Shown piece by piece: positions 1,215-48,780 of a stretch of DNA of 64,000 nucleotides. The position numbers were made by a program, and so were the translations under genes. Source of the DNA: Mobula hypostoma (lineage: Eukaryota); NCBI RefSeq assembly GCF_963921235.1, contig NC_086097.1:131194001-131258000 (forward strand). Direction: 5' to 3'. Under the pieces are notes generated by a model. It saw only the letters and a program-made list of their open reading frames with translations, was not told the origin of the DNA and searched no databases. Every line of letters begins with the position of its first letter. Positions within the stretch are counted from its first letter, which is position 1.

Positions 1215-2730
1215 ACATTTTAAATGATTTGAAATTTATTGGCACCAGGCACATACTTAGTCCTCAGACTGCATGCCTTTATTAGTGTGTTGAGTTGGGC
1301 TACTAATTAGTATGTACCAATTAATCAACTAAACATTAACAATTAAATGGAAGTAAGAGGCACTGCAGTTAGTTTGGGAGAGGAGGGGTGGGAAACAGTT
1401 TTTTCATGAGGTCTGTTAAAGCATTGTTTCAGTACAGAAATGTTAAAATTAAATGAAGAAAATAATGTTTCTTGTGCTGAGATGCTCTATTTCAAAAACA
1501 GACAAAAAAATCCCACCTCTACGATTTCAAGAACAAATAAGGCATGTTTGCTCAAAAATACTGTAAATCTGGTGTATATGTCTACTTGTGAGTACTCTTC
1601 AAAGAGTGTATGTGTAAAAGTGACTTGTACACTGGTGCAAATTATACACTGGATTTTATGATAATTGAAGTTGGAAGTGAATGTATCTAGAGCAAGTCAC
1701 ATGCTAAAGTTTTAAAATGTCATTTAATGGAGATTTCACTTCCTCACACAAAATTTTATCCTCTTTTATCTGAAATACATCTCTGACTTAAAAGGGCTAG
1801 ATAGCAGCTTCAAAAACATTTAAATTTCTCATTCCCAAACCCCCACTCCCCAAAATGCAGTTATAATAGCAATTGCTTGCATTGGAAAAAAAAATAAAAA
1901 TGACACATCTGCAACCTTATATTCTTCCTAAAGATGAGAAGAGAGACTTCCAGACTTTACTGGAGTATCTGGGTTCAATTTAAATTAATGTGGCTGTTAC
2001 AAAGCTGTCAGTAACAGACTCTATTTTTTCTGTCTGAGAAACATGTAGTTGTTTGTATATACTTTGCATATATTTATGCAAATGACAAATAAATTTACTG
2101 TGGGACTGAATATTATTTCTGACCCGCATATTCTTGACATCATAAATAGTACAGATGAGCACACTTTTCATAGAACACATCTGGGGACACAAAAATCACT
2201 TTTGTTTTAAAACAGAGCAGGATATCTTCAAAGAAAAAAAATATATTTTCAAGTTTCTACTTCATGTGAACACAATTAGCACACTTGTCCATCCATACTC
2301 CAGTCAGCTTATGCTTTCCAGGCCCTTTATCGATTCACTATGAGTACCGTTGACAAGGAACTAAGTTAGAGCCCTGGCCCAACCAAGTTTCCAATCCACA
2401 GTTTGTCCATTCATTGTAACCAAGGGCCTATTAATTTTCTGAATGTACAATTTTTCTAAAAATTTTGAAGTACTTTTCTGTAAAATTTACTATTGAAACA
2501 AGTAGTACCATGCAAATCTTGCAAGACAACTCAAACCATAACCAGAATTTGAAACTTTTGTGATTCTGGCTATAGTAAAGGAGCAAGAAAAACACAACAA
2601 CTGAGTATTTGGAGTTGAAGTCATTTCTTAACAACTATTGAAGGTATGCTCCAAAAACTGTACACAATATAGTACAAGATTCCAAAGGTAAAATGGTCCA
2701 TTTGTTACTTGCGTTTGAGAGTGCCATGTT
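1215..2730 (-). other. SALL3: Probable SALL3 3'UTR (~1.5 kb)
   Basis: AT-rich, TE-free sequence running from the stop codon to two minus-strand AATAAA hexamers, followed by a U-rich tract. The end position is inferred. Confidence 0.6.
1235..1283 (-). terminator. Tandem polyadenylation signals (AATAAA at 1278-1283 and 1235-1240)
   Basis: The plus strand has tttatt twice. Downstream on the minus strand is a U-rich element (gttattttttt) near 1190-1205. Confidence 0.6.
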
Positions 2731-3162
2731 TTAGTTAATGCCAATTTCTTTGCCATCTTCAATAAATCTAGCAAATGGGCGACTTGCACCTCCTTCTGTG
2801 CTTTGTTTCTCCAGACTAGCAACAGGTGGGCTGCTCCCCGTACGAACCCTGTCCATTCCGCTGGCCACACTAGTTAAAGCTGGGATACCGCTGGCACCCA
2901 GGCTAACAGGGAGCTGAGGGATGCCTCCATTCTGTATAACAGAAATCTCGTTATTTTTCATGGCTAGACCATTTGTGATGGCAGCAGCGTATTGGTTCCA
3001 GAATGTTGCGTCAACATTCATTGCCCGAGCTGCCAAGTCCTTTTGAAACATCTCTGAGAACTTCACAGCATCACCGCCTAGCAACGCCATTGGATTCTCT
3101 ACTGACAAACGACGTCCTCGTCTTGCTGGAGAGTTATTCCACATATGGGTTCCCATGTGAAC
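2731..3162 (-). CDS. SALL3: SALL3 coding exon 3 ([10 protein letters not shown]...GKEIGIN*)
   Basis: The acceptor ttctcgttag|GTT CAC ATG is phase 0 and completes the last finger GNLK|VHMGTH. ORF 2731..3156 has the conserved SALL C-terminus ([38 protein letters not shown]). Confidence 0.97.
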
Positions 3163-3756
3163 CTAACGAGAAACATAAAATAGTAACAAAAAGAAAATGT
3201 GCTATTAAATAGAATACACTTGTCAAACAGGATACACTTTTGATATGCAGTCACCCCATTATTATGTCCATCTGCACAGATTCTTTTAACATTTCGTTGA
3301 ACAGGAGTAGTTGATAATATTGATAGGCAGCAAATGCAATTCTGAAATAGAACCATATGTTGCAGGAAATGCAGAACAGGGCTGAGAAAAAGGGACAGGT
3401 TTATAATTTGGATGCGATCTTTACCAAAACCGTAATTATAACTTCTCTATCACAGACAAATCAACCTGTTCAACATTTCTTGCAGCTTGCCTGATCATTT
3501 CAGATTCGGGGTTTTCATTACCTTTTGCTTTGGTTGTAATGCCTCACATTATTTCTGCTGATCATAATAATTACAATTGCATCAAGCTGAACATTTAAAA
3601 TACAATTAAAGTTCACTCCACTTAGCCGAAAGTTTATACTTCAAGGCCTGAATACAAAATTCCATCAAGCAAAATTTTCACTCTGCTTTGCAACTTATGC
3701 TGTTTCAATGTCAATTATTGATCAAGTTCAGAAGAACTTGAATTCATGTGAATTCA

Positions 3757-4075
3757 GAACATATAACAGCACAGCACAGAGGAACAGGTCCTTTGGCCCA
3801 TGAAGTGCTCAACTAATTAAACAATTAAATGTCCAGCTAAACTACTAACTTCTGCCTTTACAATATCCTTTTCCTTCTATTCTCTGCATATCTATGTGCC
3901 TCTCTAACAGACTCTAAATGCCTCCATCATATTTACCTCCACAATCATCCTTGCTGTGCATTCTAGGCACCCTTTACTCTCTGTGTAAAAAAACTTGTCC
4001 CACACATCTCCTTTGAATTTAACCACTCTCATTTTGAAGGCATGTCCTCCAGTATTAGAAAGCCTTGAAAAGAAT
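3757..4075 (-). mobile_element. CR1-clade LINE 3' fragment
   Basis: ORF 3904..4092 (SNTGGHAFKMRVVKFKGDVWDKFF) resembles the CR1 ORF2 C-terminus, and a CR1-type 3' tail follows. Confidence 0.75.
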
Positions 4076-4084
4076 TCTAAAGTG

Positions 4085-4600
4085 CTGTGCATGTGTGGGG
4101 TGAGGTAATCAAAAATAATGATTCAGAGAAAAGAACGTACCAGGAAAAGTAACCAAAAGGCCTTTTCTGTGGCTGCACCAAGTTTATCTGGAGTATGAGA
4201 GATTGCAGCCCCTGTTTGAGTACTTGAAGGGTCTGCCCCTTAAGTTTTGGTTGCACTTCACCCCCACTCCTCTGAAATATGGTCACACGGGGTGGGGAAT
4301 TGAGTCGCTCAAGGGATCTAATGGTGAGATTACTCCTGGACTTGGCCAAGATGGTTCAGACAGTGAACATTCGAGGGCTCTGCCTGAACCAACTGTCTCT
4401 CCCTCTTCTGGGGTTATGTCCATGCCTGGGTATCCTTAGAGAGCGAGCATGCAGTCACTATGGGTAGAGTGGGGGATTTCTGGGAATGGTGAGGCACCTA
4501 AGGAATTAAGTGTTTTATAGATATTTTAATTTGAAATTGTTAACAGTCCTGATGTTTGTATTTTGTGAGTGAATAAACTTTTGTAGTTTTGTAAAAAAAA
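4085..4600 (+). mobile_element. Tx1/L1-clade LINE 3' fragment
   Basis: Frameshifted peptides LQPLFEYLKGLPLKFWLHFTPT and DLMVRLLLDLAK resemble the Tx1 ORF2 C-terminus. They are followed by AATAAA and an A-tail at about 4593-4600. Confidence 0.65.
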
Positions 4601-5899
4601 GAGAATTAAAATAATTATTTCAATCCTTTCACAGCTTTGTTCTATGTAATTCTGACTCATTCATTGGTGTGCTGTCTGTTGACCGATGTGGAGCCAAATG
4701 CCATCAATACAGATGGACAGAACATTATCTCTCACCAGGAAAAAGGGTATTATTACAGATTTTCAATTGCCACTCGAACAGAAATCTCACATAGCCACCT
4801 GCCTGCCTTTTACAGAAACTGCTTAGTTCATGTTTCCAAGTGGAAGCAAAAAACATTTTTTCTTTTAAAAAAAGCCCATAGTTAGCTTTCATAATGATGG
4901 CCAATTGCCAAACCAGTCTTAATCCCAGACTGTAAGCTATAAATCTATTCTAGCATGGAGGTGAGGAGGAACAGAATGATTAGTAGTAGATGCTTGTACA
5001 ATCCAGGAGGCTGGAGTGTGGGGTTGGAACAAAACTCAGTTGCCGGAACAATCTGGAAGGTAACATTAAATTATGTCAGCCCTACAATTTGCATCAAGTA
5101 GACAAAAAGCACCACGAGCAGTACACTATGTTTCTTTCTATACAACCAACTTTGCATTGACAACTGGAAAATCTCATTATTGCTTTCAAATACTTCTATG
5201 GCTTTGCTGCTCTGTGCCTCATTGACAACCTCCACTCTACAAGCCTCTGAACCATTCCATTCAATCAGTTTTGGACGTTTGCTGGCCATGCTTTATCACT
5301 GGCTACAAATTGTGAACTTGAAGTGAGAAGCCCCAACCGGCCCAGCACTGCTTCAGAATCAAGAGGAATTTTATCGAATCATAGAATTATTATGGAGCTG
5401 AAGGAGTTTGTTGAGTTCGCTGGGTCTGTACAACTCTGTCTCAAACAATCAGATCAGTTATTTTCTCCCAAGCCTGCAAATGATTTCCTCTTGAATCAGT
5501 TCCTGTTTCAACATATCCCTCAAAGGCACTGAAAATGTGGATTTTGACCATTCTTTGTGTATAATAATTTCTGGGGATTATGTGATAAAATACTATGTTG
5601 AGATGGCTAGTGGGGCTATAAGTTTTCCATCCCCTACCACCTCAACCTCCCCTTGTGAGAGCTCATTGTCCTTCTTTAAAATGACACATCAACACATTTC
5701 TGGTCACCATACTCTCTCCTTTCATGGCTCATTGGGTTTGCTAACAGTAAAATCTGTCCGTTAAAAATTGGTGTAAAGAGGTCGGTGAGACTTAAAACAA
5801 TTATTTTAATCCTCCTAAGATTGTTCAATGTTACTGTAGCTCATTCCAATGGTGTCACCACACCAATATGAAAGTAGAGCCAAATGCCAGAAGATATAG

Positions 5900-6135
5900 A
5901 TGAATGGAACACAGGCACAAAAAAGTAAAGGACTATTATGGCAGTGCTAGTGGAGGTAAATACGTTAGAAGTGTTTAAGAGCCTCTTAGATAGGCACATG
6001 AATGTGCAGATAATTCAGGGATAAGGACAATGTGTGGGGAGAAGTGATTAGTATAGTTAGGCATTTAATTACTAGTTCAACTATTTTGGCACAAAAACTG
6101 AGCCAAAGGGTCTGTTTTGTGCTTCACTGCTGTAT
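5900..6135 (+). mobile_element. CR1-clade LINE 3' end remnant
   Basis: Contains gtgtttaagagcctcttagataggcacatgaatgtgcag...gagccaaagggtctgttttgtgct, the same tail as other CR1 copies in the window. Confidence 0.65.
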
Positions 6136-7054
6136 GTATCATTGCTGAGTGGATACCCGTTATAGAACATGCTTGATTTACATTTCCAAAAGGAAGTGAA
6201 ACATTCCTATCAGCCACGTCGGAATGTCACTACACAAATGTAGGCTGACGTGCACATCATGCGGTGACCTAATTTTGTATACATATGTGTCTTCCTGTCC
6301 AGCTTCTTCTCAAATTAGATGCTATGTTTTTACCCGGTACTTTCTCATGACGACGTTCAATCATATTAAGTAGAATTAAATTATTCTCGAGCTGCACTTT
6401 AACAGTTTGCGATGTTAAGGCCACAAAGTCTGCTTATGATTAAACAAACAAGACCAATGTGCCCTCAAGATGTTACTCCCATATGACTGAGGAGAGCTGC
6501 AATTTTGAATGCACTTTTTTAACTTTACTTTACAATCTGGGTGTTTTGCCTATTTAGGCAGGTACAGTGTGTCTTCTGAACTGTGTTGTCTGTTGAACTG
6601 CCATGCCAATTTAATAAATTCAGAACAGAGATAACAGAAGAAAAAAAAAGTCTGATTAAACACTCATTTCCTTCCAACCAGATTAAATAACTAATAACTT
6701 TTTATGACATCACCTCTCTTCTATGGATCAATCACTGCATCTTTGTACTAAAATGCTTTAAAATATATACTGTTATTAAATCACTGTTTAGATTTTGCTT
6801 AGTTCATTATTCATAGGGTTGGCTACAGAATTCCTGATGTGTTGAATTTGGCCTTAAAATTCAAATAGTCCCATCCCTCTCAGTTTATTGGAAACTAATT
6901 TCTACTCAAAGCAGGGTAACTGTTGGGATTTTCAACACACAGGTCCTTAGGCACCGATCTTCTTTCAAAGGAGGTTTGCTAGTTTTGGTTTGGTTGCCAA
7001 GAGCGAATGCAGAGTGGAAATGTCTTTCAGCATTATTGTACAATGTTAAACATA

Positions 7055-8665
7055 CAGTGCTTTGAAAAAGTATTCCACACAAATCCTTTGATCAAGTAAG
7101 TGTGTAGTACAACCAAGGATTTTGCTCAATTTAACTGAGAATTTTTACTTGTGAATCACATGCTCTGTTATTGACAGCAGAGCCCAAAAACAGGGAAAAC
7201 TGTAAAGCATAAAAAACTAAAAATTCTAAACTGAAATGTCAGCAGTTCAAAAGTATTTACCCCCCCCCCCCCGCCCCTTTGCTCAGTACTTAGTTGAACC
7301 ATCTCTCACAGCAGTCTTTTTGGATAAGTCTCTATTAGCTTTTCACACATGGTGGAGCAAGATTTGCCCATTCCTCCTTGCAAAACTGCACAAGCTGTGC
7401 CAGAGTAGTTGGGGTGTGGCAGTGGACAGCAGGCTTGAGGCCTTGTCAAAGATGTTCGATCAGGTTAAGGTCAGGACTCTGACTGGGCCACTCAAGAACA
7501 TCTTTGTTTGAAGCCATTCCACGGTTGTTCTGGCTGTGTGCTTCGGGTCATTGTCTTGCTGAAAGATGAGTTTCCTCCCCAGTTTAAGCTTTCTGGCTGA
7601 GGCTAGCAGGTTTTTATCCAGGACCTCTCTGTATTCACCAGCATTCATCTTCCCATCAACCCTGACCAGATTTCCAGTTCCTGCTACTGAAAAGCATCCC
7701 CACGGCCAGGATGCTATTTCCACCACACTTTACAGTAGAGATGGTGTTACCTGGTGGATACGCAGCATCAGATTTACACCACATGTACTGCTTACTGTTG
7801 AGACCAAAAAGTTCCACTTTAGTCTCATCCAAGCACAAGACCTTCTTCCACATCTTTATAACATCTTCTAAGTGAAGCTTTGCAAAGTCTTTACAGACAA
7901 GGACATGTTTTTTTAAAGCCAGCACTTCTTCTTTGCCACTCTTCTATAAATGTGCAAGGCCTTAGATTGTGGAGACATAAATTTCATCTCCAGTTGTAGC
8001 CATTGACATCTAAAGCTCTCTCAGAGTGACTGTGGACGTCATAGTAGCCTCTCTTTCAAGTGCCATTCTTCTCCAGTGACTAAGTTTAGGGATGTGGCCT
8101 GTCCTAGGCATTGTGGCTGTGGTTTCACATTTTTTCCACTTTTTTTACAATGGACTGCACTGAGCTCTGAAGCATGTTCAGTGCCTTTGAGCTGGTTTTG
8201 TATCCTTCCCCAGATCTATGTTTCTTTGTTATGATTTCCCTGACTTGTCTTGAATGGTCTTTTGTCTTCACTTTGGTTTGATCTGCTGAAAACCTTCCAT
8301 ACTGTTGGACCTTACAGAGAGATGGGGTATTTACAGTATTCTTATGAATTCATTGAAAATAAATGATCTGCCAACTTTCTACATCAACAAATTGAGTGAG
8401 TCGGTATGGTAATATATTGCTACTGAGGAAAGTTAGCATTGTAATTGCAAAGGGTATGAATATTTTTTCAGCCACACAATTTTGGTTTTTAATTTTTTTT
8501 AGCAAATTGTTGACAGGTTTTGGAATTTTCTTTTGATTTGAGATGATACACAATGTTCTGTAGATTAGGTCAAAAAAATCCCACTTCAATATATTTTAAA
8601 TTTAGAAAATAAGACAGTAAAATGTGAAAATAATTGTGTGGGCCAAATACTTTTACAAGGCAGTG
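7055..8665 (-). mobile_element. Near-full-length degenerate Tc1/mariner DNA transposon with IR/DR-type ends
   Basis: Ends read TA|cagtgctttgaaaaagtatt and aatacttttacaaggcagtg|TA. Inner repeats lie at about 7240-7260 and 8447-8473, and transposase remnants lie between. Confidence 0.92.
7283..8271 (-). pseudogene. Tc1 transposase pseudogene (frameshifts and stops)
   Basis: Motifs [46 protein letters not shown] and the terminal GSTKY* are spread over several frames. Confidence 0.9.
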
Positions 8666-9511
8666 TACAGTGACGCTGAAAATAGAGGTAAGGAGAGTGA
8701 GACACTCACCAAATTAATTGGCACAGTCTGAATCCAGAGGCTTTGTCGAGAACATGTTTCAAAGCATATCTGTTACCATATTTACATTCAGAAAAAGATG
8801 CATTCTTATCATGGCTTATTCTAGTCATCACAGATGTTTTGGAGAGCTAAAACTGACTTACTCAGTGTCTCATAACTTTGGAGGGAACTGGGTTTGTTCA
8901 TGCAAATGAATATGGAATAAACGTCTGGCGGAGCCATGTTGGCAGACATCCTGAGAAAGCTTCTGCCAATTAATTATTTTGACTGATGTTGGATTGGTAA
9001 ACAAGGCAGATGAAGGAGACATTTTGTGCCATGTGAGTTCCCACAAACTGTAGTGAGATGCGGTAAACCTGCTCTGACAGCCAAATTAAGAGGAATGCTA
9101 TCAAGGTTAGTCATAGTCATAGTAGTCATAGTCATACTTTATTGATCCCGGGGGAAATTGGTTACTGAAGGGACTAATCACTCTTGAAGTATTGCTCTAA
9201 GATTCTTAATATCTATTTTAACCGGGACAAGTCTTCAGTTTTAAAATTGCCCAATATGCAAAAACTATAAACAGTAAGAACTGATGGATCAGCTTTGACC
9301 AGTTGCAGAAATGTAGAATCAGTATCTCTTGTTCAGAAATGTATTCGTAGCATTATTTGTATCACATCGTAGCTGTAGGACACTGGTCTGCACTTCTGAA
9401 ATTCAGTTCAGTTGAAATAATTGGAAATGAATTTCAAATACAGAGCACAGCATGGTTATCACTAGAGTGTTAAGGAAGAATTTCTGAAGAAATAATATTT
9501 AAGTTTCAACA

Positions 9512-9856
9512 AGCACCCAGGGCATGCTCTTTTCTCACTGTTACCATCAGGTAGGAGGTTTCAGAAGCCTGAAGGCACACACTCAGCGATTCAGGAACAG
9601 CTTCTTCCCTTCTGCCATCCGATTCCTAAATGGACATTGACTCTTTGGACACCACCTCACTTTTTTTTAATATATAGTATTTCTGTTTTTGCACATGTTT
9701 TAATCTATTCAATATACATAATTTATTTACTTGTTTATTTATTATTATTTTTTTTTCTCTGCTAGATTATGTATTGCATTGAACTGCTGCTGCTAAGTTA
9801 ACAAATTTCACATCACATGCCGGTGACAATAAACCCGATTCTGGTTCTGATTCTGA
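9512..9856 (+). mobile_element. Rex1/Babar LINE 3' fragment
   Basis: Encodes an HPGHALFSLLPSGRR-type C-terminus and ends in an ataaacc(gattct)n tail. Confidence 0.8.
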
Positions 9857-10716
9857 CAAGGTAATCACAAGTACAAATACATATAAAGAACAAACAACAT
9901 TGGTCAAAGTACCTTTGCATTGAACCAGTCTGTGCAAAGCATTTTAACCTTTATATGTGTGTTAGATCAAACTTTTTAACTGTGTTCTCAGTGTGCATCA
10001 ACTGTAAAGTGTGAAGCAACAATTGTAACTTAAGCTTTAAGCTCACATAAGTGCCATGGATATCGGCAAATTTGGTTCTGTAAGTTAAATAGCAGTATCA
10101 GAATCTATGGAGCCAATGGTTATTCTTTTCAAAGGAGCACAACATATCAACAAAAAATTGCTTTGGATTATCGTGTGATGGAAGAGGAATCTTTCTTCAG
10201 GAAAACTGAAGCTCAGAGTGCAGGAGAAGAAACAAGAGTGGAATGAGGGAGGCCAACTCTGGGACTTCCATATGCCATTCCTATTCAGTGCTGATGGGGT
10301 GGATGTCAAATTATGGGAGGACTCGCTACAATCTACTATAATTAGTTGGACTGACAGCACTAAATCTCCAGGTTTTCCAATGAAACGTAGTAATCTATTA
10401 CAATTTATTATTTTGATTTATTTACACTCACTTATGACTTACATTAGCAGAAGGAGAGCTTAAATTATAGACAGTTATCTGTGAGGATATAGAATCGCAG
10501 ATATAAAATGTATTTGGTTGTCTGTGGTAAGTGTTTGTGGGAGTACCAGCAACCCTTATCTACCTGGTGTTGGCCCATTTACGTCACTCCCACTTTAACG
10601 CTAATGTCAATCAAGTGAATGGAAGTAAAGCAAAATAAACAAAATGCATCATAGGTTATTTTGTCACTTTCATCACCAAACCCGAAAATTGAATACCACC
10701 TGTCTAATTAATTATA

Positions 10717-10870
10717 GGATCAGAAAATATTGGAATCACTCAACAGGTCAGGCAGCATCTGTGGAAACAGAAACAAATTAATATTTCAAGTTGAAGACAC
10801 TTCATCAAACAGAGTCCTGCTGCCTGACCTGCTGAGTTTTTCTGTTTTCATTTCAGATCTGCAGTTTTTA
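10717..10870. mobile_element. Penelope-like terminal-repeat remnant in inverted arrangement
   Basis: ctcaacaggtcaggcagca (10739-10757) and tgctgcctgacctgctgag (10818-10836) are near-perfect reverse complements. It belongs to the same family as the copies at 36.3, 40.4 and 49.7 kb. Confidence 0.65.
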
Positions 10871-13711
10871 AAAAAAATTTCAGTAACTGCAGGATAAGTC
10901 AAATGAAGGGAGACCTCTTACCACTTGATTACTATGCCTAACCTATCTAATTATGATTACCAAGAAGGGACAAACATAGGAACCGTTGGGGTGCAGGGTA
11001 TAAAGACATGTATATTGGCTATGGAACCTAAGTGTTATTCCTTCATTTCAATGATATTGCTGAACACTTTGACAATATACAGTCTTTCCTAACAGTTAAT
11101 AATTTCAGGCACAGTGAAATATAAGCCATGAGCTCCATCTTTAGAGAAAGTGCTCTTTCATGAGCTTTGTCCCATTTTTCACATTCCTTATATTCACATA
11201 AATAAGGGACTCCATCAAGTCCAGAAATGGTAAAGAAAACTACTTGAATGAAATTATTTCCCATCTATCTTTAATATTGTGCAGTTAAAATTATGAGCCT
11301 CTATTTAAGTTTCTTATTAAGAATTTGAATTTTTTTTCTATTTTAATAATATGACTGAAAATCAGATTATGAGAAAGCTACTATTATATGTAATGATTGA
11401 GGGCCAATTACTGATGAGAAAACTTAATTCACTGATCAAGTTGATTAACAGCAACTTTTATCCTGGCTCAAGAAATTACGCAATCTTAATGTTTTTGCAA
11501 ATATTAACAATGTGAACGGAAGAGGCTTCATGCTTAGTTGAGGATTCTATGTCTAAACATCCCAACAGTATGCTAACATGAGATCAGGAACTGATGCGGT
11601 TTCCCTATGCTCATCCATCTTAGAGACAATGCAGCAGCACAGCGTTAACAAACAAGCTATGCTCTGCAATTCTTGCAATTCTAATCTTATTAGTCCAGAG
11701 CATCCCAATAAAAAGGTGCACAGTTCCAAGTGTATCAATCATAATGGGAGCTCCCCTTTCTTTCTCAAGGCTCTTTGGTTTCAACTGGACTAACAACAGA
11801 CGGGAAATGGAAATGTGTCGTCAGTCACTTCTATTTGACGTTGTACTCCATTTCTGAAATATGGCTCTAAACATTTCAATGGAGTCATCAATCATTTAGT
11901 ATAAGCATAAAATTCTAACCCTTGTCATCTTTGCATCATGAAATAGTAGCTGAGATGGGCAGATGGTTGCCCTCCTTTATTCCCACCCGTCATTGGCCAG
12001 CATCTAAACTCCCTTTAGTAATTATGTAAGTTGGAGTGGGGAGCTACGCAATACATAATGTATCTTTAACATTACACCCTGGCAGTCTGGTTCAAAAGCA
12101 AACTTTAACATTTGCAAGTAAACCACATATGCAAATTTGTTGCAAGCTAGATCTGCATAGCTTTAACTGTCACAGATGAATGTTCAAGAATTAACACCAG
12201 CTGGTTTATACCTACAATCCCTCCAAATGAAACCGGTCTAAAGCAAAGAATTGTCACGAGGCAGGATGCTGAAACATCACAGTTTAAAGTACTGTATTTT
12301 GATTACATCTGAGGAGAAAAGGAATGTTCTTTGAGTACACCCCATCGGCATTCATTTACAACGCACAGATTTATTTCTAATTTAATAAAATAGACACCAG
12401 TTTAAAAAGACAATGATGTAAAATTGGTTGCTGCTTGGCTGTGTTCAAGGAGCTATATCACAGAAATAGCCTATCGTACTCTGCTTCCAAAATTCAGTTC
12501 ACTTCATTGCAATGAACTACAGAGCAGGAGTACAACTTGCTGAAGCTGCTTTAGCACAACCAACTGACAATGAATTCCCAAACGTGTGTGTTTTATTGTA
12601 AAAGTGACAATCAATGCAGCATTTTGAATTTGATTTGCACTATTATTCATCTTAGAAGATAATGTGGACTGACCTGTTGAATATTTCCCCCATTTTCTGT
12701 TTTTAATGCAGATTTCTAGCATCTGCCATTTTAAAAATGTCATTGCCAGTATTACCACTACATGGCAATTTTCAGACAGTGGTTAGAATTTCAAGAATTC
12801 TTTACGGTAACTGGACACAGATAGGCACAGATAGTCTTAATGGAAGGACATTTTGTTTCTTTCGTATTAAATGCCAGCCTTCAATTATATATTTAGTTGT
12901 TTTAGTTAATTAAAAGTTCATATGACTATATTTTAAGAACGTATGCAACTTGAAATCCTGAATTTCTGGAAGAGCATTTGTTATATTAGGAATCCTCAAA
13001 TTAAAGAAATGAACTGCAGTATAACAGTTTCCTTTTTTTTAAGTGACAAAACAAGCCTTTCTTGGATATCTTTATCTTTGTTGGGAGAATATACCACTTT
13101 TGTAAAGCTTGGTTTAAGCTAAAACTCCTCCAATCATTTTGCTGCATTCTAAAAACAAGAGACTTTTATAACTATGTTGAAAGCAAAGTATATTAAGGGG
13201 GATAATCCATTCCATTTGTTGATTTTACAGTGAGATATTTCCTACAAGGAAATTCTGTTCACATAAATGTCAGTGACAAATCCACTGACAAAGGCAGATG
13301 GTATGATGTGTGGATTAAATAAGTGAAGTTTGAAAAATTGAAAGGGTTTTCAATAGTCAATGCCCAAACTTGTTTTTTGCAATACTTAGAAACTTTTGCA
13401 ATTCAACTGTAAATAAAATTATGAAAATATATTGTTTTACCTATTTAAATCTTTCTCTCCAGTACCAAATGTTCTTTAGCACATTTCTCTCCAGTACCAA
13501 ATGTTTAGTATTATTCAATAAAATAATGATCATATTTTGTTAGTTTTTTAAATTATTTGATAATGATCTGGGAATCTGTTCCCTATTAAGATCAGTTAGG
13601 GCAGTGTGTGTGTTAGTGCGTGAGTGTGTGAAAATATCGTGTGTGTTTACATCTCTGTATAAGTTTATGTGTGCCTAAGACTAAAACCTCAAAGTGAAGT
13701 CAAATGATATA

Positions 13712-14503
13712 CAGTGGATTCTGCTTAATTGGGACAGCCACTTATTTGGGAAAACTTTTAAAGAACAAAAACTAATCGAGAGAATTGCCAGGATCTCCTT
13801 CATTTATTTGGGGCACTATGCTACTTAATTGGAATAGGAGACTTGCCGAACAGTTTCTAACTAGTGTCAGTCATGCACACTTGTGTGGCTGTTAGATGGT
13901 ACACTGCGCTAAGAGCTAACAGTTTTTAAATAGTGTCAGTTGTGTGTGTTTGTGTTCAAAAAGCAGTGATTTTTGTCACTGATAGTTGACCAGAAATTAT
14001 CAGTAAGACAATTCAGAACCGTTTTGCTCACTCCGGTTTGAAGCACTCAGGCTTGGAGATGCCAGAAACAGCCAGGAGTGAAAATGGAACAATTTCACTA
14101 TTTCAACAAGTTAGGGACTATGAAGAATTTGAAGGTATCGACAATCCTTCAAATTGAATGTTAAAATGAATATGAATATTTGGAGCTTGCAATTGCTATG
14201 CCATCGTATGAAGGGAGTCCATTATTTGCACTTGGTGTCTGTGCTGATTCTTTGCATTGTGTACACTGGATGAATTCCTCCACTGTTAACTATTAGGAAC
14301 TAACATGCAATTTTGTAGTTCTTCAGTAGTTTTGTAGTGTTCTACCTTGTTCTGTATTTCACTTAACGTTCGTAAATACATTATTTGTTACTCAGTTAAA
14401 TGGCAGCATTACTTTTTTATACCTTTTTAACTATTTCAGCGAATAGGGGCAGCTGTCTAATTGGGCCAAAATGTACTGTGTCCCAATGAACCAGAATCCA
14501 CTG
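13712..14503. mobile_element. Non-autonomous pogo/Tigger-like (Tc1-mariner superfamily) DNA transposon, ~790 bp
   Basis: TIRs are cagtggattctgcttaattgggaca and tgtcccaatgaaccagaatccactg, with TA on the left (CA on the right). It has subterminal ttaattggg-like repeats. Confidence 0.8.
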
Positions 14504-14660
14504 CATTTGATTAGGTCCCATTTTTCAGACATTAAAGCTCAAGTCTTTACATTTGCTGTGCCAACATTGTGTTTGAGATTTACATTTGCAGGTTCATGGT
14601 TAAAAGAGAAGCCGCCGATATATGTTCTTATCACTAATTTATACATCAAAATGATCTTAC

Positions 14661-17600
14661 CTTAAGATTCCCTTTTGTTGTAAAGGCTCTGCCACAGATT
14701 GTGCAGCCAAAAGGCTTTTCGCCAGTGTGAGTGCGCTCATGGATCTGAAGAGCACTTGCAGAAGAAAAGGTCTTCCCACACGACGGACAGTTATGCTGCT
14801 TGGGAGTCCGACGAGGTGGCGGTGCCAGAATGGGTGTCATACCTGGACTCATAGCTGTCTGTGGTGCAGATGGAGCCTGTATACCAACTGGAACCTGCGT
14901 GCCTTCACCTAGGGAGATCGGCTTGCTGTGACCATTGACTTCCATTTTGACCACGGTTGGTGCAGTGCTGGTGACCAGGCTAGGAGTACTTTGGGTGGGA
15001 CCTAGAGTGGAGTTGGGTTCAAATAACTGAGAAGGAAGTTCTTTCATCTTGTGAGTCAGTAAGTGCTGTTTTAAATTACCCATAGTGGAGCAACCACGAT
15101 TGCAGATTGTGCAAAGGAATGGACGCTCTTTAGTATGGCTGCGGTAGTGAATTTCCAACGCACTTTTACAAGCAAAAGGTTTCCCACAGATACTACAAAC
15201 AGTACTTTTCAACTTACCACATTCTTGGTTGGGGAACAGCATACTAAAAGCCTCTTCTTTGATGATCGGCCGGGTCAGGTTGTTGGCTGTCAGATCAAGT
15301 GCTCCTCCATTCTCCCGATGAGTTGATGGACTGTCCACTTTTTCTAATTTCACCGGAGTCTCATGCGGCTCCTCGTGGTTGCCAAAGCCTGGTGACTTTG
15401 ATCTTTGACTCCCAGCGTTACTGGGCGCGGGTGACAATGCCTGCATCGAGGAAGAGCATTCCGACAGCGCAGGGCTACCAGCACTTTGACTTTCCAGATC
15501 ACCCACAGCAGAGGAAGAGTCATTCGTTAAGCGATCGCTTTCCATGGATCCGTTTTCAACAGATTTCACAATCTGCGATCGCTGCTGGGTGCCTAGAGCA
15601 CAATCTATCATCTTCATCTGATTCTCTAGTGCGGCGATGTTGGATATCACTGAAGGTGGTGAGTTGGGCGAGGAGCCGGAAGAGCACAACAACTGTTTTG
15701 AAGACTCCGTTGAGGCAATGTTTAATTCCGCCTCCTCGTCCACTGAATTTTCATCCATCAGTTCATCGTCCGGGTAGTTGCTCATTAGTTCTGCATTCAT
15801 TTCATCACAGGTTAAGTCTCTGTCCAGGCTGTCAGATAAGCTTTCTGGCAATGGAGTGTTGGGGATCTGGCCACCCATGTGCATGCGAATATGCTGCTGT
15901 AAAACCACGGCATTTGTGAATTTCTTCTGGCAAATGGGGCAAGAGTGCTGTACTCGAAGGGGGGGCTTTGCACGGTGAACGCCAAAGTGTGTCTTTAAGT
16001 TCCCCTTGGTGGTAAAAGCCCGCCCACAGATCTTGCATTTAAATGGCCTCTCACCCGTGTGCGTGCGGTAGTGCATCTTCAGAGCACTCTGACAACTGAG
16101 AACACGGTGACAGATAACGCACTGGTTGGGGTCTGTCATCTTTTTGTCAATGTTCTCCACCAACTGCTGCAGCTTTGAGGTCTCAGATGTTTGCATAGAA
16201 TCCAACAAACCACCAAAGGGAAACTTTGCCTTGAACTGATCGGATATGATGGGGAGCAGAGGGCTGGGGAGGGTCGTGGGAATGCTGTTCACTCCACTCT
16301 CTGTGCATGTAGTGAATGTGGTGGAGCACACAGCTGATGAAACCGACTGTCCAGACGCACAGCCTTCTACCGCCTTGAAACCAGAGGCAGGTACATTCAC
16401 ACCTTGGACCATTGAAACAATACTACCACCAGTGATTGACTGCGGAGACTCTGCGGTTATCGGAATGCTGGAATCGTTCTTGTTCATATTTGGTGACAAG
16501 GAAGCACATTCGCTCGATGGAGGTGATGGTCTTTGGGGTGACCTGCTTAATGGAGTCACCGTTGGGGATTCACTAGTAATGTTTGACAGAGTTGGAGGCA
16601 ACTGTAATCCAACTGATGTTGGTATGGTTGACAGCACAGGCTTGGTGTCCAACCAGGTCGTCACTGGTTTTTCAGGTGGCAAGGACATTCCATATGGGAT
16701 ACCAGTGCTAGTAGGTACATTATCTAGGTATTCAGGAACTGGATATGGATTCATCTGGATGTGAGGGTATTTTTCTTTGTGCCTCTGGAAGTGTACTTTG
16801 AGATTGCCTTTGGTGGAAAACCGATTTCCGCAAATATTACACTTGAATGGTCTCTCTCCAGTGTGAGACCGCAGGTGAATCTGCAACGCACTGTCACTTC
16901 CGAAGACCTTCGCACAAAACCTACACTTATGCTTGAAAAATGGATCTTCTGAACTTGTTTTAGGGTCAAACACAGAGACGTTGGGTGGTTTCCCTTTGCG
17001 ATGTTTCATAAGGGCAGCCAGTGGATCCAGAGCATTGGTTGTGGCAGCGATGCTGACCAGGGGGTTTGGAAAGATCACACCACTTGAGGAATTCTGAGGT
17101 AGCAGCGAGTTAGGCATGCTGGAAGCTGCACTGAGGAGACTACCATGTGCAAGTGATGAAGTCGAATACTGCAACTGAGAGGAAGTGTTATTTGTGCTTG
17201 AACTGGAACTTGGAGTCAGGGAGGATGTAATTCCACTTGTGGTTGGAGGCAAAGTGGATTCTAGTCTTGGTGACACACTACTGGGTAGAACAGGAGTGCT
17301 AGCCCCAGAGGCTGGCTGAGCGATCTGCTGGGAGCCGTCAAAAGCCGAAGTGTGGGCGCTGGGTGCCTGCACTGTGCTGGAAGCTGAGATAACGCCTGAC
17401 AGGGGGTTGGAAGGATGCTCGCTGAAGGAAGCATGCTGGCTAGCGGCAGATACGGGAGTACCTTGGGAGGGTGCAGAAGGGTTTGGTGGGTGCAGTGGCT
17501 GTGGATTCATCATCGCCACCTGGTTGCGAATTTGTTCGATGAGTTGCAGCTGGTGCAGCTGTTGCTGCTGCAGAGCCACCAACTGCTCTAGGATCATAGG

Positions 17601-18145
17601 AATAGCCATGGTGGGTATGGTATGACTTGAAGTGGGGCTGTTAGATCTGGTGTCCTGGGAAAACTGTGCTACTGCCACCTTTGTGCTCTGCAAGGTCTCT
17701 AAAGTTACATTAGTGTTTGGCATGTTATAACTGGTCATGGAAGATGATTCTGAGATCTGAGGTAGCAAAGTAGCAGTGCTGGAGGACCCTTGATTCTGGA
17801 ACCCTTTGTCGATGGATGCATCCACCTCCATCGGCTCGTCTTGCTCGGCAATCTTTACCTCAGAGCAGTCGTTCCCCTCTAGCGGGCCATTGTCCTCACC
17901 AGCTTCACTCTCTGCCTGATCACTTGGGCTACTGGCAGGGGAAGCCTCGGGGAATTCTTCTGAGTGTGCTGCCTCCTCGTCGTTGACGATTAGGACTAGC
18001 GGGTTCTTTGTGCAATTCTTCTGGTGCTCCATGAAGTCAGGCCACTTGAAGAACTCTGCACAGCATTTCTCACAGATGTGTGTTTCCTCACTTCCACTCC
18101 TACTTTCATTCCCACTATCAGCATCGTCCGGTCCTTCCCCTGGGA
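14661..18145 (-). CDS. SALL3: SALL3 coding exon 2 (3485 nt): C2HC finger, Q-rich region, ZF clusters 1-3 and most of cluster 4
   Basis: Lies within ORF 14646..18221. The acceptor ttccttgtag|TC CCA GGG is phase 1, matching exon 1, and the donor is AAG|gtaagat. It encodes [22 protein letters not shown], the SAL boxes FSTKGNLK and FTTKGNLK, and the SALL3-type cluster 3 sequence CSTMGNLK. Confidence 0.97.
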
Positions 18146-19979
18146 CTACAAGGAAATGAAAGGGACACGTCAAGCAGTGACTTGCTGGACAACCCCTCCC
18201 TCCAATTTCAAGTTTTTGCACATAACTAAAATCAATATTTTTTTATTTTGTACAAATTACCTCACTTCAATACATCTCAGGTCCCTCTGTGTGTATTCTA
18301 TCACTCCTTCTGCCTAGCTAATCATTTTCTTTGCACAATCCATCAAATTATGAAGCCCTATCAATTGTGGATACTGCTGCTTAATGAAATTCCATAGGAG
18401 CTATTGATTTCCAATATTTTCATACAATTCACAGCTGCCTTGTCTGTTGGGTACAAATCAAGCCTTTGATGGACTCATTAGGATTCCCCTTTACCATCAG
18501 GTTTCCTCATTTCCAACAAAATTAGAGAAGTCTTTGTCAGTTCACTTGACATGACTAAACTAATCTGTAACCTTTCTGGCTCAAATCAGTAGCTGACAGG
18601 ACAAACTGGCCCTCTGTTACTCAAATGTGGTGTTGGACTGACCAGATTTATTATCTTTATACAGCATGAAGGCAGTATGGATTTAATGCTAGTCTATATA
18701 TTGTCTTAAATCAATGACCGTACCTTTAGTTGCTTCTGAAACCTGAAGTGCCGTGCACCCTTACACATTAATGAAGGTGTAGTATCTTTCAGAGCTCTGC
18801 CCAATTTAGCTAAATTAATTATTTCCTGTGCTGGCAGGGGGAAAAAGCAAAGTCTGTGCTATATCTATTAACAGTTGTTGATAGAGACCCAGACCATTAA
18901 AACTTTGAAAAACAGAAGGCCATATTATGAGTGGTGATTTCTTAACTGAACAAAACTGAAACTATCACTGTTATGATAGAGCCAGGATTTAGACTTTCTT
19001 TGGCAGCAAAATATTTTTATGATCCTCAATAAGCCCTTCATATATTAGTACACTACCTTCAGTCTTTTATGCTCCTGCATTACGAGGAAGTGACTTAAAA
19101 AAAGCTTAGTTAGTCAGCATATAAGGAAGTTTGGTACCTATAGTATTTATACAAAAGAACCCTTGGGCACTGACTCATCTTGTGCTCAAGAAATACCATG
19201 GTTTTCGTCTGTGTCAGGAAAATTACTAATTGGTAATTACTGTTGTATGTTTTCACTTTTCTGAACTGGACTTACTACTGCATGCCGAACAACAGCCAAC
19301 ATAATCAGAATTGGGTATACTATCCCTTAAATATGTCAAGAAATTTGTTGTTTTTGGGTAGCAGTACAGTGCAATGTATAAAAATACTGTTAAGATACAA
19401 TAAGGAATATATAAAAATATTTTAAAAAGTGCAAAAAAGAGCAAAGTAGTGAACTGGTTCATGGACTATTCAGAAAACATTTAAGAAACAGAATTTGAAT
19501 GGATAGCTGACCAATTAAGTAATTTATAAGCTAACTTAAAGTTTAGTTTTGGTTGCTAGCACAGCATAAGATGACATTAATGTCAAGTGGAGGCATCCAT
19601 CACTTTTCCCACTTTCTACCTTTCTAAATTATTGGTTGGCTATTCAGCTTGCTGGAAGTCAGAGGAAATATTGACTTGTCAGTGTTTTCTGCATTTTGTG
19701 TAAGACAAGGATTCTCTACAGTGGTGCAGTTGGTTAAGGCAGCGTGGTGTTGTGCCAGTGTGGTTATAGGGCCAGCTCACTGTGGCAGAGCACCCATTTG
19801 CAATTCTCTTTCAGCAATAAGCTGTTTGTAGGGTGTTGGGTAATGGCACCTGGTCATTACCCAACTTCATCTAACTACCCACGTGTATGGGAATTGGTCC
19901 CTGCAGCCAGATGTGGTCAATGCTATGGGAGGTGATCGCAACCTTATAACAGTATTGTCTGCACCCGATATTAGCTTGT

Positions 19980-20345
19980 GTCAGCTGTGGCTCAGTTCTT
20001 GTCACTATGTCGGAAGCCTCTGGGTTTAAGTCCAACATCAGTGACTAGAGCACATGGTTTTAGTACTGACAAAGAGTTCTTCCAACAGTTGAAACATTAA
20101 AGCAAGGCTCCATCTACTTTCACGTGGGTGTAAAAAATCCACAACACTGTTCCAAAGAAGAGCAGTGAAGTTATCTGTGGTGATTTGGTCAGTGTTTATC
20201 ACTCCCTCTATAGAGTACCTTCTCAGTAACACTGAGTGTGGCACACTTTTAGTGTGACCAATCTAGCTGCCACCATTTCCTCCACAGTATTGAATATCAA
20301 AATTACTTGATTGGGTGAAAAGTGCTCTGCCATGATCTGATATTT
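19980..20345 (+). mobile_element. DeuSINE (SacSINE1-like) old copy
   Basis: tRNA-like head (gctgtggctcagtt...gggtttaagtcc), a Deu-like core (acactgttccaaagaagagcag...ctagctgccaccatttcct) and an L2-like tail. Confidence 0.7.
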
Positions 20346-22298
20346 GCCTTGGAGGTGCTGCAGTGTAGATTCGCGAGACTGATTCAATGATAATTGCTTG
20401 CATCTGTAGCATGCACATCTTTTCAGCATTGCAAGAAATCACTTACTCTCATAGGGTCAAACTGCACATTCACAGGCCATTTTGCCCATTGAGTTTGTAC
20501 TGATTGTCAACCACCTATTTACTGTGCTAGTTTGTGTTTCTCACATTCCCATCAACTTCCCCCAGATGAAACCACTCACACTTGGGACAATTAACGGTGG
20601 TCAACTAACTTACCAAGCCTGGCATTGAAGGGATGTGCTACAAGCAATGCTGGCCCAAACTCTGGACTTGAGGAGAAGGATCAGTGAAACACATAAACCA
20701 GAAGTGCTTTTCCTCAAGATAGTGCAAGGTAGCCACTGAAATGGTCTGGCTGAAATGTCTAGATCCTGAGGACATAGTCTCAGGAAAAATCAATCCAAGA
20801 TGAGGAGAAAATTATTTAGTCAGTGGGTTAGGTGTTCATGAATTCTTCACCTGCTAGAGTAATTGTTGAATGTACACAAAGGCAAATTTTTGCTCACTAT
20901 AATTATCAGATAGTTCGAAAGTGAGATTGAGGAAATGGGATCTTACTGAATGCAAACAGTTCAGGTGGAATCTATGGCCCATTCCTGCTCCTGTTTCTTT
21001 AATTTCAAGGTACACTAATACCTCTGGCTCCTGAGGGGGTATATCAGTGTGAAGCATGTCAGAAGTGTTCTCGATGACTCTGGGTTGGGGAGAGGCGATA
21101 AAGGAAATCAGTCAGGGTTACTGTTACCAGCCAGCCAGTCTTGCTCTATTATCTGTGTGTGGGTATGGCGCTTTGTACACTGAACAAGTGATGACCCTCT
21201 ACATGCTGTTCTGATTTTAACTGCACTGAATCAAAGCTACGTGGCGTCCCTGCAGGGAAGCAATATCAGATTAATGGAACCGTTGTCACGTTGTCATGAC
21301 TCCACCTCTCAGCAGCCAGCAGTAAAGAGCATTAACTGAGGTCTGGAAACAGGCTGTGAGCTGGTCCTCCTGACAGGAAACTCATAAAACCCACTGGGGC
21401 TTTGACTATAATGGAGAGACTACAGAGGCAGCGTGTCCTTCATGGGGTGTGAATGGGTGATCAATATGTACAAAAATGAAAGATCTTTGCAAAGCTAATA
21501 ACTAACAGGGGTGTAGTTGGCACGTGGATGACACTGTGCTGATACTATATGCATTTCTATGAGCATATGTTTGTTCCTAAGGAGTCTTTCAGATTTAGCA
21601 CTTGCATTTTACTTACATCAGTCACAATAGCTACTATTTGAAATTAATTAACTGGGGTGTTCTGTGGTGCTATGTAAATTCATGCCTCTTTTTAAGAATG
21701 ATAGTACAAAGCTGCCCTCTATAGTTTTACCTTTTAGCATTTCTGATCCTAGCTGCTCTGAATTGAAGCCTTGTGATGTCCCTGTAGGGAATGGATATTT
21801 CAAGTCATTGCTTTTGATATCTAGCACATTGCAATTTTAAGAAAACATCTTTTGATTTCTGAGAGGCCACAGTACTTAATTCGATGTCACAAACACATTT
21901 AATTAAATATTGAACAAAAGACTGCTCATATTAAATGAATGTTACTTATTGATGTGTGAATTCATATTGTGCTTGGGCACAAATTTGTCACAAAAATAAC
22001 ACTGTGGTATTTGTTTGCCTTCTGTTGTTTAAACTAAATGCTCTGTGTTGGGTGTTGAACCCTGTTTCCGAAAAAACAGTTCCATTGAAGTATTTCAGAA
22101 TATGCTGCTAATTCATATCATTAGCATATGTAACAGAGGGCAAATTTCTACACTTGTAACCTTCATGCAAACATAATTGGAAATGAGATAGTATGAAGGT
22201 TAACAGCTTCTGATTTTTCTACAAAGATTATGAAGTATAGTACCAAGAATGGCATAGACAAAGTTTGGTGAGCAATATTCAACAAATAAATTAGGGAT

Positions 22299-47789: not shown

Positions 47790-48150
47790 ACCTTAAAGTC
47801 ATTTTCTTGCAGGGATTTAGAGGACAATAAAGAAATGCAATAGAGTTTATGAAAAAATATAAATAATAACAAAAAATAATAAATGACCAATGTGCAAAAG
47901 AAGACAACCCTAAATAAAAAATAAATAAGTGAATAAATAATACTGAGAATATGAGTTGTACAGCCCTTGAAAATGAGTCTATAGGTTGCGGAGTCAGTTC
48001 AGCGTTGAGATGAGTGAAATTATGCACACTGGTTCAGGAACCTGATGGATGTTGGGGGATAACTGTTCCTGAACCTGGTGGTGAGGAACCTAAGGCTCCT
48101 GTACCTCTTGCTTGATGGTAATAGCAAGAAGAGAGTCTGGCCTGGATGGA
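47790..48150 (-). mobile_element. Rex1/Babar LINE 3' fragment
   Basis: HPGQTLFLLLPSSKRYRSLRFLTTRFRNSY within ORF 48020..48472; homologous to 35100-35500. Confidence 0.8.
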
Positions 48151-48464
48151 TACTTCCATTGGACAAAAATAGAAAGTGCTGAAAGTTTGCAATAGAAGGC
48201 GAGTTTGTGCATTTAAAACTCAGGTCATGATCTCTGATTGAAATTATGTTTATTTTAAATTTATAAATGGAAGAAGGGCTTTGTCTGATGGTTTTATCTG
48301 CTATGTTCGTCTGAGCCCTTGACTGGAAGTCAATTAGACCTGAGTTCTGGAATAGCTGATAGCTAGTTTTCTGAGGTGAAATAGCAGCTGTTTCATTCAC
48401 TGAGAGGTGCAGGGGAAACTGCTTCGAACTAAAGCATTCGGGTCCACAACAGATACTAAGAAAG

Positions 48465-48780
48465 GGCACCACGGTAGCACAATGGTCAGCGTGCTGTTAT
48501 TATAGTACGGGGCATTCCAGAGTTCAGAGGTCAATTCCAGCACCATTCTGTTAGGAGCCTCAGTCAGTCCTCCCTGTGGAATGCAAGGGTTTTCTCCAGA
48601 TCTTCCTGCTTCCTCCTACAGTCTAAAGACGTACCGGGTAGGTTAGCTGGTCATTATAAATTGTCCCACGATTATGTTCAGGTTAATTCGGTTTCTTGGG
48701 GGTTGCTGGGGTGGTGTGGCTCAACGAGCCAGAAGGGCCTACTCCGCATTGTATTGCTAAAAGTAAACAAATAAAATAAA
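48465..48780 (+). mobile_element. tRNA-derived V-SINE-like element
   Basis: gggcaccacggtagcacaatggtcagc head, gtcaattccagc, and a gaagggcctactccgcattgtat tail. Confidence 0.75.

What the first reader, a model, noticed from the sequence alone, without database searches (positions are those of the whole stretch)
15002..15217. In-frame 216-nt exitron inside SALL3 exon 2 that would excise zinc-finger cluster 3
Seen: within the open frame there is a consensus donor GAA TGT G|gtaagt (intron starts at 15217 on the minus strand). An acceptor ccaactccactctag|GT CCC ends the intron at 15002. Both sites are phase 1, and joining G+GT regenerates Gly. Exactly 72 aa are removed ([12 protein letters not shown]...FEPNSTLG), which is both cluster-3 fingers and little else. 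Known: SALL-family isoforms arise from splicing inside the large exon 2, and I recall but cannot verify here a mammalian SALL3 isoform lacking this cluster. Inference: this sequence serves as both protein code and intron, switching between 10- and 8-finger SALL3, and may date back to the jawed-vertebrate ancestor.
Basis: partly seen in the sequence, partly recalled or inferred. Interest (0 to 1): 0.75.

Follow-up and report, generated by a model that had tools for sequence, protein, structure and literature searches.

The report
Ancient SALL3 exitron, fixed in SALL4
A 216-base piece of this ray's SALL3 gene codes for two zinc fingers and is also annotated as an optional intron at the same spot from sharks to rodents, and the related gene SALL4 likely lost those fingers when the same piece became a permanent intron.

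Summary
15217-15002 (minus strand) is a 216-nt, stop-free, phase-1 GT-AG segment encoding zinc-finger cluster 3 (ZFC3) of SALL3. Exons joined from the window reproduce three Mobula hypostoma RefSeq proteins letter for letter: 1347 aa (retained, 10 fingers), 1275 aa (spliced, 8 fingers) and 1027 aa. The exact 72-residue gap occurs in 127 of 321 fetched proteins, from rays, sharks and chimaera to rodents. So the isoform is already in databases; I obtained no reads.

Two points I did not find in ten literature searches. (1) SALL4 lacks ZFC3 at the same junction (6 of 6 proteins, chimaera to opossum); bird read-through gene calls and a human splice variant point to a phase-1 intron there, and some teleost SALL3 genes show the segment decaying. 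This suggests an exon-to-exitron-to-intron series. (2) The published 'loss' of this cluster in mouse and chick Sall3 likely reflects use of the spliced cDNA. The scan's earlier notes hold nothing on SALL genes.

The parts
15002..15217 (-). 216-nt exitron encoding 72 aa, including both ZFC3 fingers
   Evidence: GC 40.7% versus 50.2% upstream and 53.1% downstream
15212..15220 (-). 5' splice site GTG|GTAAGT inside the Cys-Gly-Lys-Leu codons; used both for the exitron and for the jump to exon 3
   Evidence: Gly-Lys in 184 of 184 retained-form SALL3 proteins
15001..15026 (-). 3' splice site (AG ends at 15002) inside the Thr-Leu-Gly codons, with a 25-nt AG-free stretch, 13 of 20 pyrimidines
   Evidence: [FS][TA]LG in 183 of 184
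15055..15061 (-). candidate branch point TACTGAC, its A 55 nt from the 3' end with three AGs in between; unproven
   Evidence: consensus recalled
15135..15197 (-). ZFC3 finger 1 (C2H2)
15051..15113 (-). ZFC3 finger 2 (C2H2), with a variant Sal box (CSTMGNLK)
14661..18145 (-). SALL3 large exon 2 (3485 nt) hosting the exitron; its donor starts at 14660
   Evidence: residues from 18140-14661 are 1160 of 1160 identical to P0121
2731..3162 (-). last coding exon (second ZFC4 finger and C-terminus); also the acceptor for the truncating 15218-to-3162 join
3134..3136 (-). TAA stop of the 6-finger isoform, in the shifted frame of the last exon
   Evidence: sequence and identity to P0122
61918..61993 (-). 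coding part of exon 1 (N-terminal MSRRKQ motif)
21731..21781 (-). 51-nt exon present in the three Mobula RefSeq forms rebuilt here

Best explanation
The 216-nt segment is protein-coding sequence flanked by a GT donor and an AG acceptor that match annotated SALL3 isoforms, so it likely works as an exitron whose one donor gives three proteins, and SALL4 likely lost the same fingers when this exitron became a constitutive intron. Shown here: if the donor is ignored the protein has 10 fingers; joining it to the acceptor at 15002 removes ZFC3 in frame (8 fingers, the SALL4-like layout ZF1+ZFC1+ZFC2+ZFC4); joining it to exon 3 shifts the frame and ends the protein 8 residues later (6 fingers, no ZFC3 or ZFC4). 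All three match RefSeq models exactly. Inferred: the spliceosome makes all three in vivo. The 6-finger mRNA would escape nonsense-mediated decay because its stop lies in the last exon. That protein would keep the N-terminal repressor motif and Q-rich partner region but lack the AT-rich-DNA-binding ZFC4, so it could dampen full-length SALL proteins. Also inferred: the splice sites arose in the SALL3/SALL4 ancestor before sharks and bony fish split. Confidence is about 0.93 for the exitron, 0.8 for real use of the third join and 0.7 for the SALL4 link.
For:: three window-built translations are identical to M. hypostoma X1, X5 and X7; of P0001-P0321, 176 are retained, 127 have an exact 72-aa gap, 14 are truncated and 4 are fragments. 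The gap form is seen in 7 batoid species, 7 sharks, chimaera, bichir, gar, coelacanth, lungfish, Xenopus, reptiles, birds, marsupials and placentals. The truncated form is seen in rays, sharks, bichirs, lungfish, Xenopus, turtle, lizard and a marsupial, always ending in VE. Curated mouse NP_840064.2 (1248 aa) and chicken NP_989978.1 (1261 aa) have the spliced lengths; human NP_741996.2 is drawn with the cluster and Xenopus AAC42233.1 has it. Lys after the donor Gly is invariant in SALL3 (184 of 184) but present in only 4 of 13 SALL1-type rows. ZFC3 is 92-100% identical to the ray's in every non-placental group, against 58-88% for the 72 residues upstream. SALL4: the crane junction aligns Gly to Gly with spliced SALL3, score 90 versus a maximum of 41 in 2000 shuffles. 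6 of 6 SALL4 proteins over 1147 aa lack ZFC3 at this point. Bird read-through gene calls stop one residue after this Gly, and another enters at the matching Gly and runs to the same Sal-box end. The human variant c.2462-1G>T implies a phase-1 intron in codon 821. SALL3+SALL4 clade at SH-aLRT 84.
Against: No junction or exonic reads were seen. Most isoforms are predicted XP models, which may partly be projected from homologues. No vertebrate orthologue DNA was obtained (one search returned only invertebrate-type loci), so synonymous constraint at GT/AG is untested. The acceptor is unremarkable and the branch point candidate distant. The first tree left SALL3/SALL4 unresolved; the second is a quick search with one weak fork. 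The SALL4 intron position is inferred from protein ends, not from DNA. In chimaera and a characin the SALL4 junction residue is Ser, not Gly. No truncated form appeared among the bird or placental rows listed. The function of ZFC3 is unknown, and no chain labelled as a SALL ZFC3 was among the 60 of 93 structure hits shown.
Confidence: 0.9

Rival explanations
1. The segment is in practice an ordinary intron that is almost always removed, and the 10-finger form is a rare retention product of little function.
For: Curated mouse and chicken proteins have the spliced length. Human SALL3 ZFC3 shows no missense depletion, VdVp 1.29 (PMC9838217). Placental ZFC3 has drifted to 85% identity, range 78-92. 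Teleost read-through models show stops or a shortened remnant.
Against: The 72 residues are 88-100% identical to the ray's from chimaera to marsupials, above both flanks. The Xenopus retained form is a curated NP entry (P0169). The rival may hold for placentals and teleosts but not for this ray.
Confidence: 0.12
2. The splice sites are by-products of conserved Gly-Lys and Leu-Gly residues, and the short isoforms are annotation artefacts projected from mouse and chicken cDNAs.
For: Chance at the single-sequence level is 2-10%. Bat SALL1 also has Gly-Lys and Leu-Gly at these places with no short form among 4 cluster members.
Against: The frameshifted 6-finger model uses the same donor in 9 or more lineages with species-specific tails, which projection of an in-frame protein would not give (pipeline behaviour recalled). 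Curated cDNA-based entries have the spliced length.
Confidence: 0.04
3. The exitron is real, but SALL4, one lamprey paralogue and teleost SALL3 lost ZFC3 by separate deletions or intron gains that merely fall at a natural domain border.
For: ZFC3 is lost repeatedly in the family (PMC5892016) and is degenerate in coelacanth SALL2 and a hagfish paralogue. Tree support for SALL3+SALL4 is weak or absent. The lamprey junction aligns only weakly (score 39; 1 of 2000 shuffles as high).
Against: Both ends and the phase coincide in SALL4, and the flanks align through the junction with one-residue gaps only. The teleost read-through from Umbra still begins Gly-Lys.
Confidence: 0.27
4. The donor is the remnant of an older conventional intron in front of ZFC3 (the 'splicing memory' route of Marquez et al.), not a new site in coding sequence.
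For: 3 of 10 invertebrate spalt-like loci with this finger start (L019, L022, L023) have a phase-1 GT-AG intron 6 codons before the first Cys; the SALL3 donor lies 7 codons before it.
Against: The position is one codon off in a length-variable linker. 7 of 10 loci have no intron there, and no matching intron was seen at the 3' border.
Confidence: 0.2

Closest known systems
Exitrons of 3n length (EIx3; Marquez et al. 2015, PMC4484396; passages read, supplements not readable)
   Same: Stop-free, GT-AG, inside a long coding exon, lower GC than the host exon, borders matching a protein domain; that paper notes exitrons removing C2H2 fingers in KRAB-ZNF genes.
   Different: Conserved at one codon across jawed vertebrates; the donor is strong, not weak; it doubles as an alternative 5' splice site to the last exon; it seems fixed as an intron in a paralogue. 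SALL is not named in that paper's main text.
Annotated SALL3 isoforms: M. hypostoma XP_062911812.1, XP_062911848.1, XP_062911863.1; mouse NP_840064.2; chicken NP_989978.1
   Same: The three Mobula proteins are identical to the window's products; the mouse and chicken entries have the spliced length.
   Different: They are database entries without an exitron label in what I saw. I recall, but could not check, that UniProt lists a human SALL3 isoform lacking 72 residues here and that early cloning papers mention the splice.
SALL4 (ZF1, ZFC1, ZFC2, ZFC4; lacks ZFC3; PMC9672407 and PMC8699250, passages read)
   Same: The 8-finger SALL3 has the same layout and an alignable junction.
   Different: In SALL4 the loss is constitutive and no ZFC3-bearing form was found (0 of 6 long proteins, 0 of 8 full-length bird cluster members printed).
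SALL4B and SALL4 ZFC4 mutants (PMC9838217, PMC7895904; passages read)
   Same: Splicing inside the big exon changes which finger clusters are present; ZFC4 is the main AT-rich DNA-binding cluster.
   Different: SALL4B keeps ZFC4 and drops ZFC1-2. The 6-finger SALL3 does the opposite.

Membership tests
Exitron (Marquez 2015) | Internal part of a protein-coding exon, flanked by coding sequence | tested here: met
Exitron (Marquez 2015) | No in-frame stop codon in the retained segment | tested here: met
   open frame 18242-14646
Exitron (Marquez 2015) | Canonical 5' and 3' splice sites | tested here: met
   GTAAGT and CTCTAG
Exitron (Marquez 2015) | Branch point | tested here: inconclusive
   candidate 55 nt upstream with three AGs between
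Exitron (Marquez 2015) | Both retained and spliced forms annotated | tested here: met
   RefSeq X1 and X5 rebuilt exactly; pairs in many species
Exitron (Marquez 2015) | Overlapping junction reads and exonic reads in RNA-seq | not tested
   no reads were laid; annotation is the only proxy
Exitron (Marquez 2015) | Lower GC than the host exon (typical feature) | tested here: met
   40.7% versus 50-53%; GC3 26 of 70, reached in 84 of 5000 synonymous shuffles, but 56 of 1088 same-size windows are as low
SALL3 orthologue | Groups with named SALL3 proteins | tested here: met
   SALL3 clade SH-aLRT 100; 100% identity to P0121
Intronized exon (SALL4 intron 2 as fixed exitron) | Same position in aligned proteins | tested here: met
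Intronized exon (SALL4 intron 2 as fixed exitron) | A real intron of the same phase at that position | tested here: inconclusive
   inferred from the ends of gene calls P0502-P0504 and P0498 and from c.2462-1G>T; DNA not seen
Intronized exon (SALL4 intron 2 as fixed exitron) | Ancestral state coding (outgroups keep ZFC3) | tested here: met
   SALL1, one lamprey paralogue, hemichordate and tick keep it
Intronized exon (SALL4 intron 2 as fixed exitron) | SALL3 and SALL4 share an ancestor that had the sites | tested here: inconclusive
   SH-aLRT 84; unresolved
Intronized exon (SALL4 intron 2 as fixed exitron) | Remnants of ZFC3 codons inside the SALL4 intron | not testable with these tools
   no vertebrate genomic DNA was available beyond the window

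The most novel reading that the evidence does not exclude
One splice-site pair that arose inside a coding exon before sharks and bony fish split shows a whole exon-to-intron path within one gene family. It is a plain exon in SALL1, a three-way exitron switch in SALL3 (10, 8 or 6 fingers), a constitutive intron in SALL4, and fixed again independently in teleost SALL3. SALL4's defining lack of ZFC3 would then be a frozen SALL3-type splice isoform, and SALL3 would make a conserved natural ZFC4-less antagonist. A lamprey paralogue cut at the same Gly may push the origin back to the first vertebrates.
Probability: 0.6. Interest if true: 0.7.

Novelty: new member of a known kind. Interest (0 to 1): 0.5.

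Why it matters
It would be a very old conserved exitron and a dated, testable case of an exitron acting as the intermediate in domain loss and intron gain, with paralogues at each stage. It offers a mechanism for why SALL4, a stem-cell and disease gene, has no ZFC3. It also suggests that a published domain map, which lists mouse and chick Sall3 as lacking this cluster, reflects the choice of isoform. For SALL3 work it says that cDNAs and variant interpretation depend on which of three forms is meant, including one with no ZFC4.

Tried and rejected
No whole genome is held for the window. Sequencing runs: no RNA holder listed; no reads were laid, so splicing levels remain open. The metagenome scan for vertebrate SALL DNA gave 73 loci at 82% identity or less; those read were invertebrate-type spalt or other finger genes, so the codon test could not be run. 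Rfam found nothing in 2000-20000. No long repeats lie in 2600-18300, so a mobile-element or hairpin origin was dropped. Four other phase-1 GT[AG]AG motifs in exon 2 (18091, 18073, 17899, 16054) were considered as further donors, but none of the large gaps started at them. The multiple alignment caught the wrong cluster through a pattern error and was redone, where the SALL2 row overran; only the pairwise part is used. The careful tree did not finish; both trees are quick searches. Literature: ten searches; SALL3+exitron 0 papers, Sall3+splice variant+double zinc finger 0, Sall3+alternatively spliced+exon 2+spalt 0. Two older papers were not held, the exitron paper's supplements could not be read, and sequences in the EvoDevo table are cut at 400 residues. 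The scan's own notes gave nothing on SALL genes.

Full report
Observation. The minus strand carries one open frame from 18242 to 14646. Inside it the donor GTG|GTAAGT begins at 15217 and the acceptor AG ends at 15002. The segment is 216 nt, phase 1 at both ends, and encodes 72 residues with two C2H2 fingers. The donor is the only perfect GTAAGT among 188 GT dinucleotides in the exon. Synonymous shuffles give donor and acceptor together in 118 of 5000 trials and a like donor anywhere in 485 of 5000, and the acceptor ranks 19th of 135. The segment is GC-poor (40.7% against 50-53%; GC3 26 of 70, reached in 84 of 5000 shuffles, though 56 of 1088 windows are as low). The sequence alone is suggestive, not decisive.

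Identity of the gene. The exon-2 protein is 1160 of 1160 identical to Mobula hypostoma SALL3 X1 and 1159 of 1160 to M. birostris, so the window comes from a devil ray or manta. Exon 1 (61993-61918), a 51-nt exon (21781-21731), exon 2 (18145-14661) and the last exon (from 3162) rebuild three RefSeq proteins letter for letter. X1 is 1347 aa with the segment retained. X5 is 1275 aa with the join 15218 to 15001. X7 is 1027 aa with the join 15218 to 3162. They have 10, 8 and 6 fingers. These are predicted models; I saw no reads.

Conservation. Among proteins P0001-P0321, 176 retain the segment, 127 lack exactly 72 residues at this Gly, 14 are truncated and 4 are fragments. The queries favoured retained forms or spliced forms, so these counts are not usage ratios. 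The spliced form occurs in 7 batoid species, 7 sharks, chimaera, bichirs, gar, coelacanth, lungfish, amphibians, reptiles, birds, marsupials and placentals. Chimaera and bichir also have retained models (P0474, P0477). Gly-Lys at the donor is present in 184 of 184 retained SALL3 proteins and [FS][TA]LG at the acceptor in 183 of 184; among 13 SALL1-type rows only the 4 bat proteins have Gly-Lys. The 72 residues are 88-100% identical to the ray's outside placentals, above both flanks, so they are kept as protein. In 18 placental rows the identity falls to 78% (65-89). This agrees with the report that human SALL3 ZFC3 shows no missense depletion (PMC9838217, passages).

A third outcome. In 13 of the 14 truncated proteins, and in two bichir proteins, the donor Gly is followed by the same 8-residue shifted-frame tail ending in VE; the fourteenth has an extra exon in between. 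In the window this is the join to 3162 with a stop at 3136-3134, in the last exon, so decay of the mRNA is not expected (established rule, recalled). The protein keeps the N-terminal repressor motif and Q-rich region but lacks ZFC4, which binds AT-rich DNA in SALL3 and SALL4 (PMC9672407, PMC7895904, passages). That it interferes with full-length SALL proteins is my inference. None appeared among the bird or placental rows listed.

The SALL4 link. SALL4 is known to lack ZFC3 (PMC9672407, PMC8699250, passages). The crane SALL4 linker aligns Gly to Gly with spliced SALL3 (score 90, shuffle maximum 41 of 2000). All 6 SALL4 proteins above 1147 aa (anole, opossum, axolotl, newt, chimaera and a characin protein assigned by the tree) lack ZFC3 at this point. 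The junction residue is Ser in chimaera and the characin. Two unnamed bird-type gene calls stop one residue after the Gly, and a third enters at the matching Gly and ends at the same Sal-box position as SALL3 exon 2. This is what a phase-1 intron would give, but I saw no DNA. A human SALL4 splice variant, c.2462-1G>T, places an acceptor in codon 821, phase 1 (PMC8141661, table row). SALL3 and SALL4 group at SH-aLRT 84 in one quick tree and are unresolved in another with a single SALL4 row. SALL1, one lamprey paralogue, a hemichordate and a tick keep ZFC3, so coding is the ancestral state. A second lamprey paralogue lacks it near the same Gly, with weak alignment support.

Teleost SALL3. All 11 teleost rows and the bowfin row printed lack ZFC3 (the query was biased to such forms). 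An Umbra model ends four residues after the Gly, still starting Gly-Lys. A cluster of four unnamed fish gene calls runs into a dinucleotide-type repeat and ends. A mormyrid model keeps a 33-residue remnant without intact fingers. These fit a second, independent fixation, but they are gene models.

Mechanism. Shown: sites, frame, three products, their conservation. Inferred: competition between no splicing, the nearby acceptor and the last-exon acceptor sets the finger count; the sites arose in coding sequence in the SALL3/SALL4 ancestor; splicing became constitutive in SALL4, and the freed sequence diverged into an ordinary intron. An alternative origin is a lost intron: 3 of 10 invertebrate spalt-like loci have a phase-1 intron 6 codons before ZFC3, one codon from the SALL3 donor.

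What is known. Exitrons, including finger-removing ones, are described in PMC4484396 (passages; SALL not in the main text; its supplementary lists were not readable and may include SALL3). PMC5892016 (section 12, passages and part of supplement 1) states that chick and mouse Sall3 lack this cluster. It used 1261- and 1248-aa entries, the spliced lengths in birds and rodents, while related galliform birds and murids have retained models. I did not hold a retained form for mouse or chicken itself, so this correction is inferred. I recall, unverified, a human SALL3 isoform with this deletion in UniProt and in early cloning papers. Ten searches of an open-access library found no paper calling it an exitron, describing the third join, or linking it to SALL4; most results were seen as listings only, and subscription journals are not covered.

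Verdict. A real, ancient exitron of a known kind whose spliced product is already annotated. The added value lies in the three-way donor and the likely exon-exitron-intron series across paralogues. Interest 0.5.

Noticed in passing
window 21731-21781 and from 31649 (minus strand): A 51-nt exon and an alternative start exon inside intron 1 match Mobula RefSeq X1 and X2 N-termini.
   Followed up: partly
window about 11550-11790 (minus strand): Weak similarity (54% and 40%) to an alternative last exon of Rhinoraja SALL3 X4; several chondrichthyan models end in different last exons after the first ZFC4 finger.
   Followed up: no
window 15051-15113: The second ZFC3 finger has CSTMGNLK where SALL1 has FSTKGNLK; the Cys in place of the core aromatic residue is shared by the retained SALL3 proteins read.
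   Followed up: no
window 18140-18146: Two acceptor AGs 6 nt apart at the start of exon 2; the upstream one fits the RefSeq proteins.
   Followed up: partly
L019:2170-2361, L022:2050-2139, L023:4565-4653: Invertebrate spalt-like genes with a phase-1 intron just before ZFC3 and another inside its second finger.
   Followed up: partly
P0509/P0396 (coelacanth SALL2) and P0355 (hagfish): Both keep a degenerate ZFC3, although SALL2 is described as lacking it in all vertebrates.
   Followed up: no
PMC5892016 supplement 1: The chicken csall2 and csall3 rows have the same length and the same first 400 residues, so they look like one gene listed twice.
   Followed up: no
window 13452-13505: Perfect 22-nt direct repeat with 32-nt spacing in intron 2.
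   Followed up: no
window 35347-35889 and 48020-48496 (minus strand): Two open frames with related sequence that resemble retroelement-derived repeats (resemblance recalled, not tested).
   Followed up: no
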